Source: Escherichia phage vB_EcoM_11B_SA_NWU | DNA: 64,000 bases | Direction: 5' to 3' (one strand) | Sequence record: OR062527 | Shown: positions 29,979 to 40,216 of the stretch, one piece after another | Numbering within the stretch: position 1 is the first letter of the stretch | How the letters are laid out: each line of letters starts with the position of its first letter | Translations under genes and position numbers: made by a program | The notes under the pieces: generated by a model | The model's input: the letters and a program-made list of their open reading frames with translations, nothing else | What the model was told of the DNA's origin: nothing | Database searches by the model: none

Positions 29979-30308
29979 TCAATTAGAAAATAAATTTATC
30001 CAAGATTGTTCTTTAATTAAAAACGGCTCAGAATCATATGCCATTAAACTTTGAGTAATTAATCCTTTAAATGGTCCATCAATAAATTCCATTGTAAAAT
30101 ATGGAATTTTATTCATTAACCGTGCATTAGGAGCAGTGCATAAAACTCTGCATCCTTTGAATACACCTTTTTGTAATTTGTATTGCTTGGGATAAAATTC
30201 ACTCAAAATATCACTGTTTGCCAAAATTTCAAAATGATTCACCAACTTATTTTTAATAGTTTTTGGCGAAAAATAAAGATATTCAAAAAGCTGCGCATCT
30301 GTCATCAT
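29979..30308 (-). CDS. hypothetical protein, translationally coupled partner of P-loop ATPase
   Basis: Start at MMTDAQLFEY, forming an ATGA overlap with the upstream stop; tracked ORF extends further but overlaps 55 nt. Confidence 0.45.
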   Translation of the reverse strand: MMTDAQLFEYLYFSPKTIKNKLVNHFEILANSDILSEFYPKQYKLQKGVFKGCRVLCTAPNARLMNKIPYFTMEFIDGPFKGLITQSLMAYDSEPFLIKEQSWINLFSN

Positions 30309-30892
30309 TGCATTCCGATTACGAAAAACTGTGGACGAGTAATACCACCAATGCAACATTTACTATTGCAGCAGTAGTGTACAGTGTCCATATGGGCGCT
30401 ATAAATCTTATCCATATCAGGAGATTTAACAGGCTCATCAATTATATACAAAATTCGCGAAAGCGATAAACCTATGAACTTGCTTCCTTTATTACCAATA
30501 AAACTGCGCACAGAATCAGTAAATAAACGAAAACGTATATCATCATTAGAATAACGCGAAAATTCCTTTTTAATGTTATCTGCAGAAATTTTAGCGTAAG
30601 CTGAAGTATTAGAAAGAACAATAACTGTTCCGCCATCATACAGCCAATTAGCAGCAAAGTTAGTCACAGCAACTGATTTTCCGGATTGGCGACCACCGTC
30701 AAGTCGAAGAGTGCAATACTGTTTGAGTAAGTCTTCAAATGGCGGGATATAATCGTTTTTACAAATTTCTTCTACTCTAGCATCAGAATGGTGTGTAAAA
30801 GCATTCATCAGGGATAGATAAGGACCAGTCAAAAATGTTCTCATTTTATTCTCTCTAGATTTGGGCCATTCCATGGCGCATGAATTGTCCAT
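30305..30892 (-). CDS. P-loop NTPase
   Basis: Walker A LDGGRQSGKS and Walker B ILYIIDEP; Cys-rich C-terminus; start Met uncertain (M1, M7 or M17). Confidence 0.5.
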   Translation of the reverse strand: MDNSCAMEWPKSRENKMRTFLTGPYLSLMNAFTHHSDARVEEICKNDYIPPFEDLLKQYCTLRLDGGRQSGKSVAVTNFAANWLYDGGTVIVLSNTSAYAKISADNIKKEFSRYSNDDIRFRLFTDSVRSFIGNKGSKFIGLSLSRILYIIDEPVKSPDMDKIYSAHMDTVHYCCNSKCCIGGITRPQFFVIGMQ

Positions 30893-30979: not shown

Positions 30980-31453
30980 TTATTTAAATGATTTGACGTA
31001 CTGAACAGAACCTTTACTATTCACAAAGGCAATTTTACCGTTTTTGTTATACATTGTGGCAGTACGTTGATAGCCATAAGTTTGTTTACCAGATTGATAA
31101 CCAACTAATGCAAAATTATCTTCACCCATTTTATTCTGTTTAGCGCGAATGCGTTCATGACCGTGAGCCATAAGAACCTTAGCATCACCAGTTGCAATGG
31201 ATCTACGAGTTTTTTCATCTTCAACTGTATTAACAAAGTCGTCAAATGAATCAAATTTAGCATGAGATTTATTATACAGTTTTCCATCTACTGCATAATT
31301 ATATCCCTGTACATCCATCTCAACTTCTGTACCATCATCCAATACAGCAGTGATTTTCTGTCCTTTTTTAAATTTCAAAAGATCAGTAAAAGATTCAGCA
31401 ATAATTTGAGAATTAATAGCTGCTTCAGTAATAAATTCTTGATATGTTTTCAT
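30980..31453 (-). CDS. Internal protein (capsid-targeted, ipIII-like position)
   Basis: N-terminal capsid-targeting sequence MKTYQEFITEA; next to e as for T4 internal proteins. Confidence 0.7.
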   Translation of the reverse strand: MKTYQEFITEAAINSQIIAESFTDLLKFKKGQKITAVLDDGTEVEMDVQGYNYAVDGKLYNKSHAKFDSFDDFVNTVEDEKTRRSIATGDAKVLMAHGHERIRAKQNKMGEDNFALVGYQSGKQTYGYQRTATMYNKNGKIAFVNSKGSVQYVKSFK

Positions 31454-34363: not shown

Positions 34364-34957
34364 TTATTTCAGAGAATTAATATATTCCTGAACATCGGCA
34401 GAGGTAGTTTCAACCCCAGAAATATTACCATTAAAGGTTTCAACTCGAGCAAGAGTATCTTCAATATCAACCTTAGTCAGTGCTGCAATTTCAACTACAT
34501 CATCAGCAGTACTAATTCCAAGGGCATTCGCGGCGCGAGTTTCACGAATATATTCCAATTTAACTGCAAGTTCTTGGCGAGCATCATCTAACTCAACTAC
34601 TTTCTTGGCAATTTCAATTCGCATTTCAGCATAACCATCAGCTTTAGTAGTCAACTGCTCAGCTGTTCGACGATATAGTAAACCGAGTTTAGCATGCATT
34701 GTTACATCTTGACCTTCAGAAAGAAGCTTGCGAATTTCGCGCTCTTTTGATTCGGCCTGCTTATTCTTTTCGACAATAAGTTCACGAATACGCTTTTCTT
34801 CGTTAATAGATTTAATGGAAGCAGTTTTTAGGTCTTTAATCTTATCAAGTAGTTTTGCTGCTGCAGCAGTATACTGTTCTTCAACAGATAGATTTTTAGC
34901 CATAGCAGAACCAAGTTTAGTGCGAATAAACTCAACAATTTTCTTCAGTGTGTTCAT
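34364..34957 (-). CDS. coiled-coil protein
   Basis: 197 aa, strongly helical and heptad-rich. Confidence 0.5.
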
Positions 34958-35064
34958 AGTATTTCCTTAGGTTAATTAAGATTTAAAATCTGTGAGAGTA
35001 TTAGTATTATACTCTATCCTCAAGTTATAGGCTCATAATATCTCAATCATGAGCCTATGTAAAC

Positions 35065-35340
35065 TTATTTCATATTATTGAAATATTCTTCTGCAATTTC
35101 GTCGTTATCATGATAAACTTTAGAAGACAGTTTAACATAACCTTCAGCAGTGAACATGTTAATCACAACCTTTACAGTATACCACTGACCGTCTTCATTA
35201 CCCATTACTGCATAAGTTTCAAACATCGGATGATCAGGACCGATAACTTTAATATCATTCACTGTACGACCAAAATCTTCTGAAACACATTTCATAAAGA
35301 AGTTGAACAGTTCGCCGTAATTATCCATTTCATTCTCCAA
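35065..35340 (-). CDS. hypothetical protein
   Basis: 91-aa ORF directly after promoter-leader repeat. Confidence 0.5.
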   Translation of the reverse strand: MENEMDNYGELFNFFMKCVSEDFGRTVNDIKVIGPDHPMFETYAVMGNEDGQWYTVKVVINMFTAEGYVKLSSKVYHDNDEIAEEYFNNMK

Positions 35341-35371
35341 GTTGTTTTCTGTATCAGTAGTTGATAGTTGT

Positions 35372-35401
35372 ATAGTACCACGGAAGAACAGGGATGTAAA
35401 C
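35372..35401 (-). promoter_or_regulatory. T4-type early promoter with conserved leader
   Basis: GTTTAC-N18-TACTATACAACTATCAACTAC on minus strand. Confidence 0.5.
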
Positions 35402-35539
35402 AGTTTTGTGAAAAAATTTTTAAAAATTTTTAGGAAATTCTAGGGCAGGGAGGGGCAATTAAAAGATAGGATAATATATTATAAAGGGTAGAAACTAAAT
35501 GATGCCTAGAGAGGCCCGGAAAGGCCTAGATACCAAAAA

Positions 35540-35561
35540 GCCCCAACCTTTTGGTCGGGGC
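35540..35561 (-). terminator. Rho-independent terminator (copy 1 of 30-nt repeat)
   Basis: Minus-strand RNA GCCCCGACC-AAAA-GGUUGGGGC followed by UUUUU. Confidence 0.6.
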
Positions 35562-35569
35562 TAAGAATG

Positions 35570-36043
35570 TTATTTGATTTGTTTAGCAGACCAAATGCGG
35601 TCTTTAATAATTTTTTGGATGTCTTCAACATACTCAAGAGAGTGAACATGTGGATTATCTTTGAAACTATAAGCACGGGCTAACTTTTGGCCTTCGGTTT
35701 TGATTACTAAAAGCTCTTTAAGGATAGCTTCATATTTAGAGATAATTCCTTTAACGATATTTTTTTCTTGTGCAGCTTTAGGATCTGCTTTAGGAGCAGG
35801 TTTACCCGAAGCCTTTGCAAAAGCAGCGCCAGTAGCAACTAAACTTTTCCAGGCCATACTAACTGCATTTCCCGTAAATCCTTCTGCTTTCATGTCGCGA
35901 GCAAATTGGAATCGTGATTCGTCAGAAGCATCTTTATAGGAATATTTACCCGCTGCAATGGCTGCTTTTGCAACAGCTTGAATTTCGGTGCTAGATGCTT
36001 CATTTAACACCGCTTCATTTAAAAATTGAGCATATGATTTCAT
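35570..36043 (-). CDS. Internal-protein-like gene with capsid-targeting N-terminus
   Basis: Start at MKSYAQFLNEA, parallel to the MKTYQEF targeting sequence; tracked ORF extends upstream through the terminator. Confidence 0.55.
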   Translation of the reverse strand: MKSYAQFLNEAVLNEASSTEIQAVAKAAIAAGKYSYKDASDESRFQFARDMKAEGFTGNAVSMAWKSLVATGAAFAKASGKPAPKADPKAAQEKNIVKGIISKYEAILKELLVIKTEGQKLARAYSFKDNPHVHSLEYVEDIQKIIKDRIWSAKQIK

Positions 36044-36098
36044 CTTATTTCCTGTTTTAATTCGTGGATTTAATATACTACTATATTTATACCAAAAA

Positions 36099-36120
36099 GC
36101 CCCAACCTTTCGGTCGGGGC
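36099..36120 (-). terminator. Rho-independent terminator (copy 2 of 30-nt repeat)
   Basis: Same hairpin as 35540..35561 with one loop difference, then U-tract. Confidence 0.6.
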
Positions 36121-36125
36121 TAAGC

Positions 36126-36430
36126 CTTGCGGCAACCTTGTCGGGGTTCCACCTGCTAAGGCAAGTGTTTGTACGAAACGCCGGGATTCGAACCCGGTTA
36201 TCAAGCAATTGACGCTACTCAATATTTTTAAAAGGCCATATCTCGACCATATCCGAACGTTCCGTCAAAAACGCTACTCGGCTTACGGCAAAGATATTTC
36301 CTCGAATCGATAATTCGGTGCGCCGTTTCTGCTGTGATATAAGGGGGCATTAACAAAACATAAAGATTTATTAATGCCAGTCCTTAAACAGGGAACATCA
36401 GTCCGACGACTTACCGGTAGCGACCCGGTT
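36126..36430 (-). ncRNA. Candidate structured stable RNA(s) downstream of tRNA-Arg
   Basis: Non-coding ~300 nt between a CDS and a terminator; contains tRNA-like T-arm ACCGGGTTCGAATCCCGGC but no full cloverleaf. Confidence 0.35.
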
Positions 36431-36432
36431 TC

Positions 36433-36783
36433 TTAATATTCTTTTAAAGCATCAATTTGTTCACGGCGTAAACGCCATAAATCAATTGCTTCATAAGCAG
36501 ATTCAACATTTCGAATTAGCCGACATTTATGTAAAGACTTATGATTTTGATATTGTGTAGATAACGGAATTTTATCTAAAAGGTCTTTACGTTCAAAGTA
36601 TTCGTAACCATCTAAGCCAAATGAACGATTTTTGAGAAATTGCCAATGACCAAATTCGTTTTCGACATAAACATAATCTGCATGCTGATAAAGCAAATTA
36701 ATTACACGTTCAGAAATAACAGTATCATTATGATTAAAATAGAATGTTAAATCATGAACTACTAAATAAACATTACCTTTCAT
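36433..36783 (-). CDS. hypothetical protein
   Basis: 116-aa ORF between tRNA-Arg and the structured RNA region. Confidence 0.45.
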   Translation of the reverse strand: MKGNVYLVVHDLTFYFNHNDTVISERVINLLYQHADYVYVENEFGHWQFLKNRSFGLDGYEYFERKDLLDKIPLSTQYQNHKSLHKCRLIRNVESAYEAIDLWRLRREQIDALKEY

Positions 36784-36880: not shown

Positions 36881-37531
36881 TTAAAATTTCATTTTTCGAC
36901 CTTTAAACCATCCTTCTGGAATTGGGTCAGTTTTCTTAATACGTTTAGAAACTTTTTCATCTAATGAATGAATCCACATGGTTCCAAACTGAGAATTGTA
37001 TTTTCCAGAAGAATTAATCTTGGCTGAATCAGATATTTTCTTTTTCGTTTCTTTGTTATGTAGTTTACCTAAAAATCCAAAAGTTGGTTTTCTTATTCCA
37101 TTTTCCCATTGAATTTTCATAGATTCAGAAACTTTTTGCGATACCTTCGAATAGTCTCTTCTTAAGTTAGATTCTCTTACTCCAGATGAACAAATTGATG
37201 CAAAATTTGGACTATTACAAATATGATCCCAACCGCCTTCGCCACCAATCTTAAGATTATAAACGTTGCCTTTTAAAAATTCTTCTGTTACAATTTCAAG
37301 CTCTTTTGCGTACATTTCTTTAGCAGAAGAAAATTCATACAAAATTTCTTTTGTGAAATTATTTATTCCATACTTAGCAATTGCTCTTTTTATTCTTTTA
37401 CCAGAACCCATATAACCATCATTTATATTAGATGTTTTATGAGCTCCAACATAAACAGTTCCATTGATTAAATTAGTTATTTTATAAATCAGATAATGCA
37501 TATCTCCTCCATAGTTGAGATTATTATACAT
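36881..37531 (-). CDS. segB: GIY-YIG homing endonuclease (SegB-like)
   Basis: 216 aa; N-terminal YLIYKITNLINGTVYVGAHKT; located inside the tRNA cluster. Confidence 0.75.
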   Translation of the reverse strand: MYNNLNYGGDMHYLIYKITNLINGTVYVGAHKTSNINDGYMGSGKRIKRAIAKYGINNFTKEILYEFSSAKEMYAKELEIVTEEFLKGNVYNLKIGGEGGWDHICNSPNFASICSSGVRESNLRRDYSKVSQKVSESMKIQWENGIRKPTFGFLGKLHNKETKKKISDSAKINSSGKYNSQFGTMWIHSLDEKVSKRIKKTDPIPEGWFKGRKMKF

Positions 37532-38881: not shown

Positions 38882-39271
38882 TTACCCTTCATCAACAATA
38901 GTATGAGTGTGGGCATTTACAATTTGCCACCAATCAAAGCGATTAGAACCATACATCGGTTTGTTTTCATTTTCTTTGATAATATCACGAAGTTCATCTT
39001 CAGTAGCGGCTTTCGCGATTAAATCAGCATATCCACCACGAGGATAATAATTATCACCTGCAAAAAGTAAAAAGTTTGGTTTAATGTTATTGAACTCTTC
39101 AAGAGTAATAACTGTTCCACCAGGTTGAACAATCTCTACATATTTATATCCTAATTTTTGAGCAGCATCTACTGCTTCAAGCAGGGTATCATGAGCCCAT
39201 CCAATTTGGCAATCTGGCTTTTCAGATGGATTAGCCTGATAATCCGCGTACACTTTATACATTCTATTCAC
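38882..39271 (-). CDS. hypothetical protein
   Basis: 129-aa ORF. Confidence 0.45.
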   Translation of the reverse strand: MNRMYKVYADYQANPSEKPDCQIGWAHDTLLEAVDAAQKLGYKYVEIVQPGGTVITLEEFNNIKPNFLLFAGDNYYPRGGYADLIAKAATEDELRDIIKENENKPMYGSNRFDWWQIVNAHTHTIVDEG

Positions 39272-39449
39272 CTTTAGAAATTTTATCCATAACGATAGCG
39301 ATTAAACCAATTAAAAATGCTACTACAAGTGAAAAAACATTTTCTGCTGTAGTTAATAATCCGCATATAAATCCAACAAACATTGAAAAACTAAAAGCGG
39401 AAGCAGAAATTGCAATAGCAACATTTCGAATTAATTCACAGCGTTTCAT
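39264..39449 (-). CDS. small membrane protein
   Basis: 61 aa, hydrophobic; follows promoter-leader repeat. Confidence 0.45.
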   Translation of the reverse strand: MKRCELIRNVAIAISASAFSFSMFVGFICGLLTTAENVFSLVVAFLIGLIAIVMDKISKGE

Positions 39450-39477
39450 TTTATTCTCCTCAGTAGTTGATAGGGTA

Positions 39478-39507
39478 ATAGTATCACAACTAAAACCCTA
39501 TGTAAAC
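39478..39507 (-). promoter_or_regulatory. T4-type early promoter with conserved leader
   Basis: GTTTAC...TACTAT...CTATCAACTACTGAGGAGAATAAAATG on minus strand. Confidence 0.5.
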
Positions 39508-39519
39508 AACTTTGTGAAA

Positions 39520-40216
<697 letters not shown>

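What the first reader, a model, noticed from the sequence alone, without database searches (positions are those of the whole stretch)
35533..36125. Internal-protein-like gene flanked by near-identical 30-nt terminator repeats
Two copies of aaaaagccccaacctt(t/c)tggtcggggctaag (35533..35565 and 36092..36125, differing only in the loop) bracket a single gene. Its product starts MKSYAQFLNEA, closely paralleling the MKTYQEF capsid-targeting sequence of the internal protein next to e (30980..31453). Internal proteins are injected with the DNA, and T4 IPI is an anti-restriction factor. A repeat-bounded internal-protein gene looks like an exchangeable cassette and a candidate new anti-restriction specificity.
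Basis: partly seen in the sequence, partly recalled or inferred. Interest (0 to 1): 0.5.

Follow-up and report, generated by a model that had tools for sequence, protein, structure and literature searches.

The report
Swappable internal-protein gene behind tRNA terminator
A T4-like phage carries, between two copies of its tRNA-operon terminator, a gene for a small basic protein with the head-packaging signal of T4 internal proteins; the slot is empty in T2, T4 and T6, so this widespread family of likely injected proteins has never been studied.

Summary
A 36-nt direct repeat (35530-35565 and 36089-36124, one mismatch in the hairpin loop) brackets one minus-strand gene (36043..35570, 157 aa). 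The repeat is the intrinsic terminator of the tRNA/rnaD/rnaC cluster, duplicated. T4, T2 and T6 have one copy and no gene, so the difference is a clean 559-bp indel (gene plus one repeat).

The protein belongs to PHROG 2280 (unknown function). It is found in 511 phage records, always annotated "hypothetical protein".

Its leader MKSYAQFLNEAVLNEA keeps the residues shown experimentally to matter in the T4 IPIII capsid-targeting sequence: aromatic at 4, Phe at 7, and L/I-x-E at 8-10 for gp21 cleavage. This pattern holds in 14 of 14 family members. A TATAAATA late-promoter motif forms at the repeat junction and recurs in other genera.

Related phages hold 0, 1 or 2 family members here. Divergence is confined between the repeats, and different protein bodies share an identical terminator/promoter/leader module.

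Best reading: a third, overlooked internal-protein locus with recombination-exchangeable alleles. Packaging, cleavage, injection and any anti-restriction role are inferred, not shown. It is a new member of a known kind, of moderate interest.

The parts
36172..36310 (-). rnaC (species 1 stable RNA), the last gene of the tRNA/stable-RNA cluster. Context only; the coordinates are approximate and transferred by homology.
   Evidence: Annotated as rnaC in RB68 and T4 at the homologous position. The window sequence aligns with T4 through ...CGGCGTTTCGTA. Rfam has no model that hits it.
36089..36124 (-). Upstream copy of the 36-nt repeat. It is the intrinsic terminator of the tRNA/rnaD/rnaC transcription unit (hairpin 36121..36098, loop GAAA, then UUUUU).
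   Evidence: Repeat family D1. Hairpin -24.9 kcal/mol, z -3.48. Terminator-like site. The same sequence occurs once at the same place in T4.
36084..36091 (-). TATAAATA, the T4 late-promoter consensus. It is formed across the junction: TAT is the end of the repeat and AAATA is the start of the insert. It starts 48 nt upstream of the ATG.
   Evidence: [T/A]ATAAATA sits just 3' of the rnaC terminator in every occupied locus examined (13 of 13 besides T4) and in the Klebsiella phage KP1 locus. The motif is not enriched in the window overall (12 found, 10.7 expected), so the conservation is the evidence, not the single match.
36048..36053 (-). Shine-Dalgarno AGGAAA, 4 nt upstream of the ATG.
   Evidence: Read directly from the sequence.
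35570..36043 (-). CDS of 157 aa in PHROG 2280. It is a candidate internal (capsid-targeted, injected) protein. The layout is leader, three-helix N-domain, Pro/Lys/Ala linker, then a C-terminal helical hairpin. The pI is 9.5.
   Evidence: ORF. PHROG 2280 at E 7e-61, no Pfam match. AlphaFold2 model with pLDDT 71.7. Charge. Homologues.
35999..36043 (-). Leader, codons 1-15: MKSYAQFLNE|AVLNE|A. It is a CTS-like sequence with Tyr4, Phe7 and two L-N-E sites that fit the gp21 L/I-x-E cleavage motif.
   Evidence: The determinants (residues 4 and 7 for targeting, 8 and 10 for processing) and the L/I-X-E motif are described in PMC9026906.
35530..35565 (-). Downstream copy of the 36-nt repeat. It is the terminator for the inserted gene (hairpin 35562..35539, loop AAAA) and begins 4 nt after the stop codon.
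   Evidence: (-21.7 kcal/mol, z -3.73). Its 3' flank (GGTATCTAGGCC...) is what follows the single copy in T4.
35566..36124 (.). The 559-bp unit (one repeat plus promoter, leader, gene body and stop) that is present here and absent from T4, T2 and T6. It is equivalently 35530-36088.
   Evidence: Three-way alignment with T4. Interval lengths are 793 nt here and 234 nt in T4. The T6 and T2 annotations show an empty interval.
35372..35400 (-). Early-type promoter of e.8 (TTTACA, 17 nt, TACTAT, with TG). Together with the terminator upstream it forms a loose PeSL-like terminator/early-promoter block.
   Evidence: The same block is present in T4. It fits the consensus TTTACW N17 TAYWAT given for PST/T4 PeSLs in PMC4122927.
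35065..35331 (-). e.8, the conserved gene that forms the right border of the slot.
   Evidence: PHROG 2678. Annotated e.8 in T4, RB68 and RB51.

Best explanation
The window comes from a Tequatrovirus (T4-like phage). Between rnaC, the last gene of the tRNA/stable-RNA cluster, and e.8 lies a hot spot for gene gain and loss. In this phage it holds one PHROG 2280 gene.

The module reads: tRNA-operon terminator, then the late-promoter motif TATAAATA, then a Shine-Dalgarno site, then a 10-15-residue capsid-targeting leader, then the cargo protein, then a second copy of the same terminator.

Shown by sequence and comparison:
- The two 36-nt terminator copies are direct repeats.
- Recombination between them would give exactly the empty, single-terminator site seen in T4, T2 and T6.
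- Alleles differ sharply only between the repeats.
- Different protein bodies share an identical terminator/promoter/leader segment.

The slot therefore exchanges alleles by homologous recombination at these short conserved ends. This is the way PeSL cassettes and the classical IP loci are thought to work.

Inferred steps:
1. The upstream terminator shields the gene from early and middle tRNA transcription, so it is made late from TATAAATA.
2. The leader (Tyr4, Phe7) docks the protein onto the prohead scaffolding core.
3. The gp21 protease cuts after L-N-E, at residue 10 and/or 15.
4. The basic mature protein of about 15.5 kDa stays in the head with the DNA and is injected at the next infection.
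5. There it most likely neutralises a host defence. By analogy with Ip1, Ip2, Ip3 and Bas37_0260, the likeliest target is a modification-dependent (type IV) restriction enzyme.

The last step is the weakest.
For: Repeat and terminators.

T4 has one copy. Its left flank matches the window's upstream copy and its right flank matches the downstream copy. T6 and T2 are also empty.

Survey of the interval in 15 loci:
- No gene: T4.
- One gene: the window, RB68, R5505, L005, L006 and L009.
- Two PHROG 2280 paralogues of 157 and 187 aa: ime09, L007, L008 and L012.
- A PHROG 2280 gene plus a 184-aa PHROG 2143 gene, in either order: L010, L013 and L011. L014 has a PHROG 2280 gene followed by a 219-aa ORF that was not classified.

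All these cargo proteins hit PHROG 2280 at E 1e-54 to 1e-61.

Identity between the window and L006 is 93-100% in the flanks and 52-88% only between the repeats. The L010 205-aa gene and the L011 157-aa gene share near-identical DNA from the hairpin through TATAAATA, the SD site and about codon 16, and then diverge completely.

The same architecture and the same presence/absence polymorphism occur in Klebsiella Jiaodavirus. KP1 has terminator, TATAAATA and MKFKEFLAEA; ValerieMcCarty03 is empty.

Leader: only 2 of 490 ORFs in the window match the strict CTS pattern. Aromatic-x-x-F-[LIV] and [LIVM]-x-E within the first 9-15 residues are kept in 14 of 14 family members, down to about 35% identity. 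These are the positions shown by amber-suppression to control targeting (4, 7) and processing (8, 10) (PMC9026906). [LI]xE[AGS] sites occur only in the leader, and the pI of 9.5 matches the T4 IPs (9.0-9.65).

Function prior: Ip1, Ip2 and Ip3 each block a distinct GmrSD enzyme (PMC12373910). Bas37_0260, which also carries a CTS, blocks McrBC (10.1101/2025.11.20.689424).
Against: - There is no direct evidence that the protein is in virions, cleaved or injected. My searches for virion proteomics covering this family found nothing.
- No record among the 511 calls it an internal protein.
- It lies outside the two Ip loci recognised in the literature.
- T4 ipI, ipII and ipIII have early-type promoters and no TATAAATA within 110 nt, so this gene differs in regulation.
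- TATAAATA is not enriched in the window (12 found, 10.7 expected).
- The mature part has no Pfam hit and no informative fold match, so the target is a guess.
- In Silas et al., ip4-10 had no reproducible target among the GmrSD systems tested. Carrying a CTS therefore does not guarantee a known anti-restriction activity.
- The leader could be conserved partly because it travels with the recombining promoter module.
Confidence: 0.68

Rival explanations
1. The protein is packaged by its leader but has no anti-defence role. It would serve inside the head, for example in charge neutralisation or DNA packing, or as an accessory of the scaffolding core, as proposed for IPIII in head assembly.
For: It is basic and lysine-rich (25 K+R, pI 9.5). 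Lysines of internal proteins contact DNA phosphates in the T4 head (PMC3012670). An IPIII mutant shows slower head assembly and a smaller burst (PMC9026906). This phage has an empty ipI locus and only one other recognisable IP, so the protein could simply supply internal-protein mass. The fold is a generic helical hairpin.
Against: The family is dispensable: it is absent from T2, T4, T6 and ValerieMcCarty03. It evolves much faster than its flanks and occurs as tandem divergent paralogues, which suggests an arms race rather than a structural role. All four CTS proteins with a known function are restriction inhibitors.
Confidence: 0.17
2. The protein is a late cytoplasmic protein that is not packaged. 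The CTS-like N-terminus would be a passenger of the recombining promoter/SD/leader module, or would be kept for translation initiation, and is no longer used for targeting.
For: The first ~48 nt of the coding sequence are part of a DNA block that is nearly identical between different genes, so recombination alone could spread the leader. No annotation or proteomic record places the protein in virions. It lies outside the recognised Ip loci.
Against: In distant members (35-42% identity, with different DNA) the same amino-acid positions are kept: aromatic 4, Phe 7, Leu/Val 8, and Glu at the end of an [LIVM]-x-E. That points to selection on the peptide, not only on the DNA. The first 10 residues of IPIII suffice to package foreign proteins (PMC9026906), so a leader this similar is expected to work. 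Late timing matches prohead assembly.
Confidence: 0.12
3. The repeat has no role in mobility. It would be a local tandem duplication of the terminator, kept only because each transcription unit needs its own stop signal, and the presence/absence pattern would come from unrelated deletions.
For: Each copy is a functional-looking terminator in a sensible place. In Klebsiella phage KP1 the two flanking terminators are not repeats of each other, so the gene does not need identical ends. In ime09 the second gene ends with a different hairpin.
Against: The T4, T2 and T6 state equals the precise product of recombination between the two copies. Divergence between alleles begins and ends at the repeats. 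Even the different ime09 terminator shares the 3' segment GGGCTTTTTGG.ATCTAGGCC, where homology resumes. Recombination between such short flanking motifs, yielding mini-circles, was demonstrated for PeSLs in RB49/phi1 (PMC2839356).
Confidence: 0.1

Closest known systems
T4 internal proteins IPI, IPII and IPIII (Ip1-3) and the Ip4-Ip13 series of T-even phages
   Same: It has the N-terminal capsid-targeting leader (MKTYQEFIAE in IPII/III, MKSYAQFLNE here) with aromatic 4, Phe 7 and L/I-x-E cleavage motif. It is a small basic protein. It is non-essential and variable between close relatives. It is encoded in a slot whose content changes by recombination at conserved ends.
   Different: The mature part is unrelated: PHROG 2280 versus PHROGs 4363, 7857, 5341 and 3155. 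It sits in a third locus (rnaC-e.8), not the 57B-trna.4 locus or the locus next to e. It has a late-type TATAAATA motif behind a strong terminator, where the T4 ip genes have early-type promoters. Packaging and function are untested.
Bas37_0260, a CTS-bearing McrBC inhibitor at the ipI locus (HIDEN-SEQ preprint, 10.1101/2025.11.20.689424)
   Same: It is a recently recognised protein that shares only the N-terminal signal with IPI-III and was found to be a type IV restriction inhibitor. It is the model for what this protein may turn out to be.
   Different: It lies in a different locus. Its function is shown experimentally, whereas here it is not.
PeSL / PmSL cassettes (promoter-early or promoter-middle stem-loop) of T4-type phages
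   Same: A stem-loop terminator plus promoter plus SD block flanks variable ORFs. A single element remains at the empty site in a close relative. The exchange points lie in these blocks. The proposed excision and integration go through mini-circles (PMC2839356, PMC4122927). The terminator and early promoter upstream of e.8 fit the PST/T4 PeSL promoter consensus.
   Different: The 5' block here carries a late-promoter motif, not an early or middle one. It also extends into the coding region to include the CTS leader. The repeated part is only the 36-nt terminator. Mini-circles were not tested.
Lambdoid 'morons' (an ORF with its own promoter and terminator inserted between two genes)
   Same: It is a single accessory ORF with its own promoter motif and terminator, placed between two conserved transcription units.
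   Different: There is no sign of foreign origin: the family occurs only in T4-like phages. The ends are homologous to resident sequence rather than novel.

Membership tests
T4-type internal protein (CTS-bearing, gp21-processed, packaged, injected) | N-terminal capsid-targeting sequence with the targeting determinants at residues 4 (aromatic) and 7 (Phe) | tested here: met
   MKSYAQF has Tyr4 and Phe7. Only 2 of 490 ORFs in the window match the strict pattern. The feature is kept in 14 of 14 family members. The determinants are described in PMC9026906.
T4-type internal protein (CTS-bearing, gp21-processed, packaged, injected) | gp21 cleavage motif L/I-x-E at the end of the leader (residues 8-10 in IPIII) | tested here: met
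   L8-N9-E10|A11, and a second site L13-N14-E15|A16. No [LI]xE[AGS] site occurs elsewhere in the protein. The motif is described in PMC9026906.
T4-type internal protein (CTS-bearing, gp21-processed, packaged, injected) | Small, basic, dispensable, and variable among close relatives | tested here: met
   157 aa with pI 9.46; T4 IPs are 8.9-9.5. It is absent from T4, T2, T6 and ValerieMcCarty03. Allele divergence is 52-88% against 93-100% in the flanks.
T4-type internal protein (CTS-bearing, gp21-processed, packaged, injected) | Physically present in the mature head in processed form, and ejected into the host | not testable with these tools
   No virion proteomic data for any PHROG 2280 member were found. 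The one Jiaodavirus virion proteome examined is from a phage that lacks the gene.
T4-type internal protein (CTS-bearing, gp21-processed, packaged, injected) | Encoded in one of the two recognised variable Ip loci (57B-trna.4, or next to e) | tested here: not met
   The gene lies between rnaC and e.8, about 3.5 kb from e and on the other side of the tRNA cluster from the ipI site, which is empty here. The literature speaks of two Ip loci. This is a usual location rather than a functional requirement.
Type IV restriction inhibitors of T-even phages (IPI*, Ip2, Ip3, Bas37_0260) | Inhibits a GmrSD- or McrBC-type modification-dependent nuclease | not testable with these tools
   This rests on analogy only. 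There is no sequence or fold similarity to any solved inhibitor.
PeSL (promoter-early stem-loop) mobile regulatory cassette | Stem-loop terminator directly followed by an early (sigma-70-like) promoter, SD and start codon | tested here: not met
   After the upstream hairpin comes TATAAATA (late type) and no early promoter is detected. The downstream hairpin is followed by the e.8 early promoter only after about 140 nt.
PeSL (promoter-early stem-loop) mobile regulatory cassette | Elements flank variable ORFs, close relatives keep a single element at the empty site, and exchange points lie in the elements | tested here: met
PeSL (promoter-early stem-loop) mobile regulatory cassette | Formation of excised mini-circles during infection | not testable with these tools
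   This needs inverse PCR on infected cells, as in PMC2839356.
Intrinsic (factor-independent) terminator | G+C-rich hairpin followed by a U run, on the transcribed strand, at the end of a transcription unit | tested here: met
   A 10-bp stem with 7 G-C pairs, a tetraloop and UUUUU. Free energies are -24.9 and -21.7 kcal/mol, and 0 of 200 shuffles fold as well. The scan hits are on the minus strand only. The sites lie after rnaC and 4 nt after the stop codon.
T4 late promoter | TATAAATA at about -10, recognised by gp55-modified RNA polymerase | tested here: inconclusive
   The exact motif sits 48 nt upstream of the ATG. It is conserved at the same place in the other occupied loci and in a second genus. 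However, the motif is as frequent in the window as in shuffles, and its use in vivo was not measured.

The most novel reading that the evidence does not exclude
PHROG 2280 is a third-locus family of late-made, capsid-targeted, injected proteins. It went unnoticed because T2, T4 and T6 all lack it. Its fast-diverging alleles and tandem paralogues (157, 187, 205 and 177 aa) would each disarm a different host defence that has no known phage inhibitor yet, most likely further variants of modification-dependent nucleases. In addition, the block of about 125 nt (terminator, TATAAATA, SD, CTS leader) would act as a portable 'address label' that recombination can place in front of different protein bodies to send them into the head.
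Probability: 0.38. Interest if true: 0.62.

Novelty: new member of a known kind. Interest (0 to 1): 0.45.

Why it matters
All four CTS-bearing proteins with a known function are specific inhibitors of type IV restriction enzymes (Ip1, Ip2 and Ip3 against GmrSD variants, Bas37_0260 against McrBC). Several active GmrSD variants still have no known inhibitor (PMC12373910).

This family is carried by most sequenced relatives that have the flanking gene e.8. It is in 511 records, against 596 with e.8. It is missing from the three model T-even phages. It is therefore an obvious, untested candidate for such inhibitors and for host-range differences among therapeutic T4-like phages.

It would raise the number of Ip loci from two to three. 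It would also give a natural example of a late-promoter version of the terminator/promoter recombination modules that shuffle accessory genes in these genomes.

The leader variants could also be useful for the T4 protein-packaging technology that relies on the CTS. These include the doubled LNE site and the shorter MKFKEFLAE form.

Tried and rejected
- Pfam gave no family for the protein.
- Rfam found nothing between 35000 and 36430 apart from chance-level hits. It has no model hitting rnaC or rnaD.
- The exhaustive profile search found 13 cluster representatives. They look phage-derived: T4-type leaders, truncated fragments, or fusions with neighbouring T4-like genes. No functional hint came from them.
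- I looked for virion mass-spectrometry evidence in the Yersinia fPS-90 paper (no proteomics), in the fHe-Yen9-01 literature and in the Klebsiella ValerieMcCarty paper and its supplements. That last phage turned out to lack the gene.
- The gene names RB32ORF132c and RB69ORF149c, and the leader strings, do not appear in the searchable literature in this context.
- Repoila 1994 and Comeau 2007 (the latter cited for '>30 IP variants') could not be read. Earlier recognition of this family as an IP candidate therefore cannot be excluded.
- I considered whether the repeat is a dispersed element. It is not: the window has 2 copies, and 120 records hold 125 places for the exact 36-mer. That count is limited by megablast word size.
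- I first assumed that IP genes are late genes. Direct inspection showed that T4 ipI, ipII and ipIII have early-type promoters, so the late motif is a difference, not a shared feature.
Full report
**1. The observation**

The window is a Tequatrovirus (T4-like phage) segment. The 1.5 kb around the finding is 95-97% identical to several hundred T-even relatives such as RB51, RB68, IME339 and AR1.

The repeat finder reports a two-copy direct repeat of 36 nt at 35530-35565 and 36089-36124. The copies are 559 nt apart and have one mismatch. A search allowing three mismatches finds only these two sites in 64 kb, with none expected in shuffles. The hairpin core strings occur nowhere else in the window.

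On the minus strand, which is the transcribed strand of this region, each copy is a 10-bp G+C-rich hairpin with a tetraloop (GAAA upstream, AAAA downstream) followed by UUUUU. The free energies are -24.9 and -21.7 kcal/mol, and no shuffle folds as well. Both are picked up as terminator-like sites.

One gene lies between them: minus strand, 36043..35570, 157 aa, starting MKSYAQFLNEAVLNEA.

**2. What the repeat is**

Eleven tRNA genes lie upstream on the same strand. They are followed by rnaD and rnaC, identified by homology with the RB68 and T4 annotation.

In T4 the stretch between rnaC and e.8 is 234 nt and holds a single copy of the same hairpin. A three-way alignment shows that the left flank of the T4 copy continues into the window's upstream copy. 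Its right flank (GGTATCTAAGCCTTTCC...) continues from the window's downstream copy.

The window thus differs from T4 by exactly 559 bp, which is one repeat plus the gene. T6 and T2 also have an empty interval. The repeat is the ordinary terminator of the tRNA/stable-RNA transcription unit, duplicated around an extra gene.

**3. Signals around the gene**

The last three bases of the upstream repeat (TAT) and the first five of the insert (AAATA) make TATAAATA, the T4 late-promoter consensus. It starts 48 nt before the ATG. An AGGAAA Shine-Dalgarno site follows, 4 nt from the ATG. No early-type promoter is detected between the hairpin and the gene.

The motif alone is weak evidence, because the window has 12 copies against 10.7 expected. 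However, [T/A]ATAAATA sits in the same place in the other 13 occupied loci examined. It also sits there in Klebsiella phage KP1, where the hairpin sequence itself is different.

T4 ipI, ipII and ipIII, and the window's own IP gene next to e, have early-type promoters (GTTTAC... TA.TAT) and no TATAAATA within 110 nt. This gene would therefore be late-only, which differs from the classical ip genes but fits the timing of prohead assembly.

The downstream hairpin starts 4 nt after the stop codon. About 140 nt further on is the e.8 early promoter (TTTACA, 17 nt, TACTAT). That promoter fits the PST/T4-type PeSL promoter consensus TTTACW N17 TAYWAT (PMC4122927).

**4. The protein**

The protein has no Pfam family. 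It matches PHROG 2280, 'unknown function', at E 7e-61. tblastn finds it in 511 phage GenBank records: 343 Escherichia, 54 Shigella, 38 Klebsiella, 25 Yersinia and others. Every listed annotation is 'hypothetical protein'. The flanking gene e.8 is in 596 records.

A profile search of 1.84 billion representative proteins returns only 13 clusters. They look phage-derived: most have T4-type leaders, and the rest are truncated fragments or fusions with neighbouring T4-like genes. There is no informative cellular homologue and no functional hint.

The AlphaFold2 model (pLDDT 71.7) shows these parts:
- a disordered leader;
- a three-helix N-domain (residues 18-71, the best-conserved part, with the motifs GKYSYKD and AWKS);
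- a disordered Pro/Lys/Ala linker;
- a C-terminal helical hairpin.

Fold searches return only orthologues or generic helical hairpins. The protein is basic (pI 9.5), like T4 IPI, IPII and IPIII at 8.9-9.5.

**5. The leader**

According to PMC9026906, the first 10 residues of IPIII are sufficient for incorporation into the head. Residues 4 and 7 matter for targeting and residues 8 and 10 for processing. gp21 cuts after L/I-X-E.

The window protein has Tyr4, Phe7, Leu8 and Glu10, plus a second L-N-E at 13-15. It has no other [LI]xE[AGS] site anywhere in the protein.

Only two of 490 reading frames in the window match MK[ST]Y.[EQ]F[IL].E: this gene and the PHROG 3155 internal virion protein next to e.

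In all 14 PHROG 2280 leaders examined, including members with 35-42% identity, two features are kept: the core aromatic-x-x-Phe-[LIV], and an [LIVM]-x-E within the first 9-15 residues. That argues for selection on the peptide itself. This is the main evidence that the protein is capsid-targeted and processed. It remains indirect.

**6. The slot is polymorphic and exchanges alleles**

In 15 loci the rnaC-e.8 interval has these states:
- No gene: T4.
- One PHROG 2280 gene: the window, RB68, R5505, L005, L006 and L009.
- Two PHROG 2280 genes in tandem, 157 aa followed by a 187-aa paralogue starting MKTYAEFLTEA: ime09, L007, L008 and L012. The 187-aa form is present in 165 records.
- In RB69-like phages, a PHROG 2280 gene of 154-205 aa plus a 184-aa membrane-like PHROG 2143 gene, in either order: L010, L013 and L011. 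L014 has a PHROG 2280 gene followed by a 219-aa ORF that was not classified.

The 157-, 187-, 205- and 177-aa forms all hit PHROG 2280.

Between the window and L006, identity is 93-100% in both flanks. It drops to 52-88% only from 36080 to 35602, which is between the repeats, and returns to 100% at the downstream repeat.

The L010 205-aa gene and the L011 157-aa gene share near-identical DNA from the hairpin through TATAAATA, the SD site and about codon 16. After that they diverge completely. In ime09 the second gene ends with a different hairpin, yet homology to T4 resumes within its 3' half (GGGCTTTTTGG.ATCTAGGCC).

The same gene at the same position, just after the tRNA cluster, is found in Klebsiella phage KP1. 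There it has its own terminator, TATAAATA and the leader MKFKEFLAEA. The closely related ValerieMcCarty03 has an empty site with the two terminators almost abutting.

The gene is therefore an old resident of this position. It has been lost repeatedly, and its alleles are swapped through the short conserved ends.

**7. Mechanism**

Shown:
- the duplicated terminator;
- a precise single-copy empty site in relatives;
- divergence bounded by the repeats;
- a shared terminator/promoter/leader module.

Inferred from these, and from the PeSL work on RB49/phi1 where recombination between flanking stem-loop/promoter motifs was shown to excise mini-circles (PMC2839356; PMC4122927): loss, gain and replacement occur by homologous recombination at the 36-nt terminator and at the leader block.

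Inferred for the protein:
1. It is transcribed late.
2. It docks onto the scaffolding core through the leader.
3. gp21 cuts at residue 10 and/or 15.
4. The basic mature protein of about 15.5 kDa is retained with the DNA.
5. It is injected at the next infection.

The proposed role, neutralising a host defence, rests on precedent. Ip1, Ip2 and Ip3 each block a distinct GmrSD-type enzyme (PMC12373910). A further CTS protein, Bas37_0260, blocks McrBC (10.1101/2025.11.20.689424). It also rests on the arms-race signature of the locus. Against over-confidence: ip4-10 had no reproducible target among the GmrSD systems tested.

**8. Comparison with what is known**

The protein works like a T4 internal protein and meets the sequence-level criteria: leader determinants, cleavage motif, size, charge, dispensability and variability. 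The defining physical criteria (presence in the head, processing, ejection) could not be tested.

It lies outside the two Ip loci named in the literature. In this phage the classical ipI site between 57B and trna.4 is empty.

The DNA module works like a PeSL but fails the defining early-promoter feature. It is a late-promoter analogue that extends into the leader codons.

I could not read Repoila 1994 or Comeau 2007, the latter cited for '>30 IP variants'. Earlier listing of this family as an IP candidate therefore cannot be ruled out. In public annotation and in PHROGs it is not recognised.

**9. Verdict**

The cassette reading and the IP-like reading are supported by comparative sequence evidence. 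Packaging and anti-restriction remain hypotheses.

It is a new member of a known kind: a candidate internal-protein family at a third locus with a late-promoter recombination module. Interest is moderate at 0.45. The biology is expected for T-even phages. The family is nevertheless widespread, unannotated, absent from the model phages, and directly testable now that IPs are known to be type IV restriction inhibitors.

Noticed in passing
window 39450-39519 (minus strand, between 57B at 39975..39520 and trna.4 at 39449..39264): The classical ipI locus is empty in this phage. It has only 70 nt, carrying an early promoter. T4 has ipI there, RB68 has Ip5, and T2 has 'internal head protein 7' plus another ORF. 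The only recognisable CTS proteins in the window are the one next to e and the PHROG 2280 protein.
   Followed up: partly
window 34958-35064 (between e.6 at 34957..34364 and e.8 at 35331..35065): The e.7 position is also empty here (107 nt). T4 has e.7 (111 aa), RB68 has a 172-aa ORF, ime09 has a 132-aa ORF, and L006 has about 380 extra nt. This is a second indel hot spot next to the first.
   Followed up: partly
window 36881-37531 (minus strand): A GIY-YIG homing endonuclease (SegB/SegE-like; PHROG 314 at E 1e-43) is inserted between tRNA-His and tRNA-Arg. T4 has segB at a different place in the cluster, and RB68 has one between tRNA-Ser and tRNA-Gly. The tRNA sets also differ between phages.
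   Followed up: no
window 36433-36783 (minus strand): A 116-aa ORF (PHROG 3355, unknown function) sits between tRNA-Arg and rnaD. It is present in RB68, T2 and ime09 but absent from T4 and T6, where tRNA-Arg abuts rnaD.
   Followed up: no
loci L010/L013 versus L011, interval between rnaC and e.8: In RB69-like phages the PHROG 2280 gene and a 184-aa membrane-like PHROG 2143 gene (MKLLKYLSWILLVPLDF...) occur in opposite orders. Each is preceded by TATAAATA in L010 and L013.
   Followed up: partly
proteins P0013 (182 aa) and P0014 (94 aa): These are fusion proteins. P0013 joins the first ~56 residues of a Klebsiella-type PHROG 2280 protein to the downstream e.8-like ORF, so it is a deletion derivative. 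P0014 joins a trna.3-like N-part (PF26894) to the last ~30 residues of the PHROG 2280 C-domain. They may be real recombinants or assembly chimeras.
   Followed up: no
window 35340-35420 and 39455-39520 (minus strand): The upstream regions of e.8 and trna.4 share a long block: TTTCACAAA..GTTTACA, then 17 nt, then TACTAT..CTATCAACTACTGA. It is a repeated early-promoter module of the PST/T4 PeSL type and could itself serve as a recombination site.
   Followed up: no
window 30305-30892 (minus strand): Downstream of the single IP gene next to e there is a 195-aa ORF. T4 has ipII followed by denV at this position, so the second Ip locus also has a different content in this phage.
   Followed up: no
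terminator copies in loci L001, L005 and L008: The 5' half of the hairpin stem varies (CCCCGACC, CCCTAGCC, CCCCAGCC, CCCCTTCC), while the 3' half plus the T run (GGTTGGGGCTTTTT) is invariant. Most variants keep pairing through G-U. The invariant 3' half coincides with the point where homology resumes at exchange junctions.
   Followed up: no
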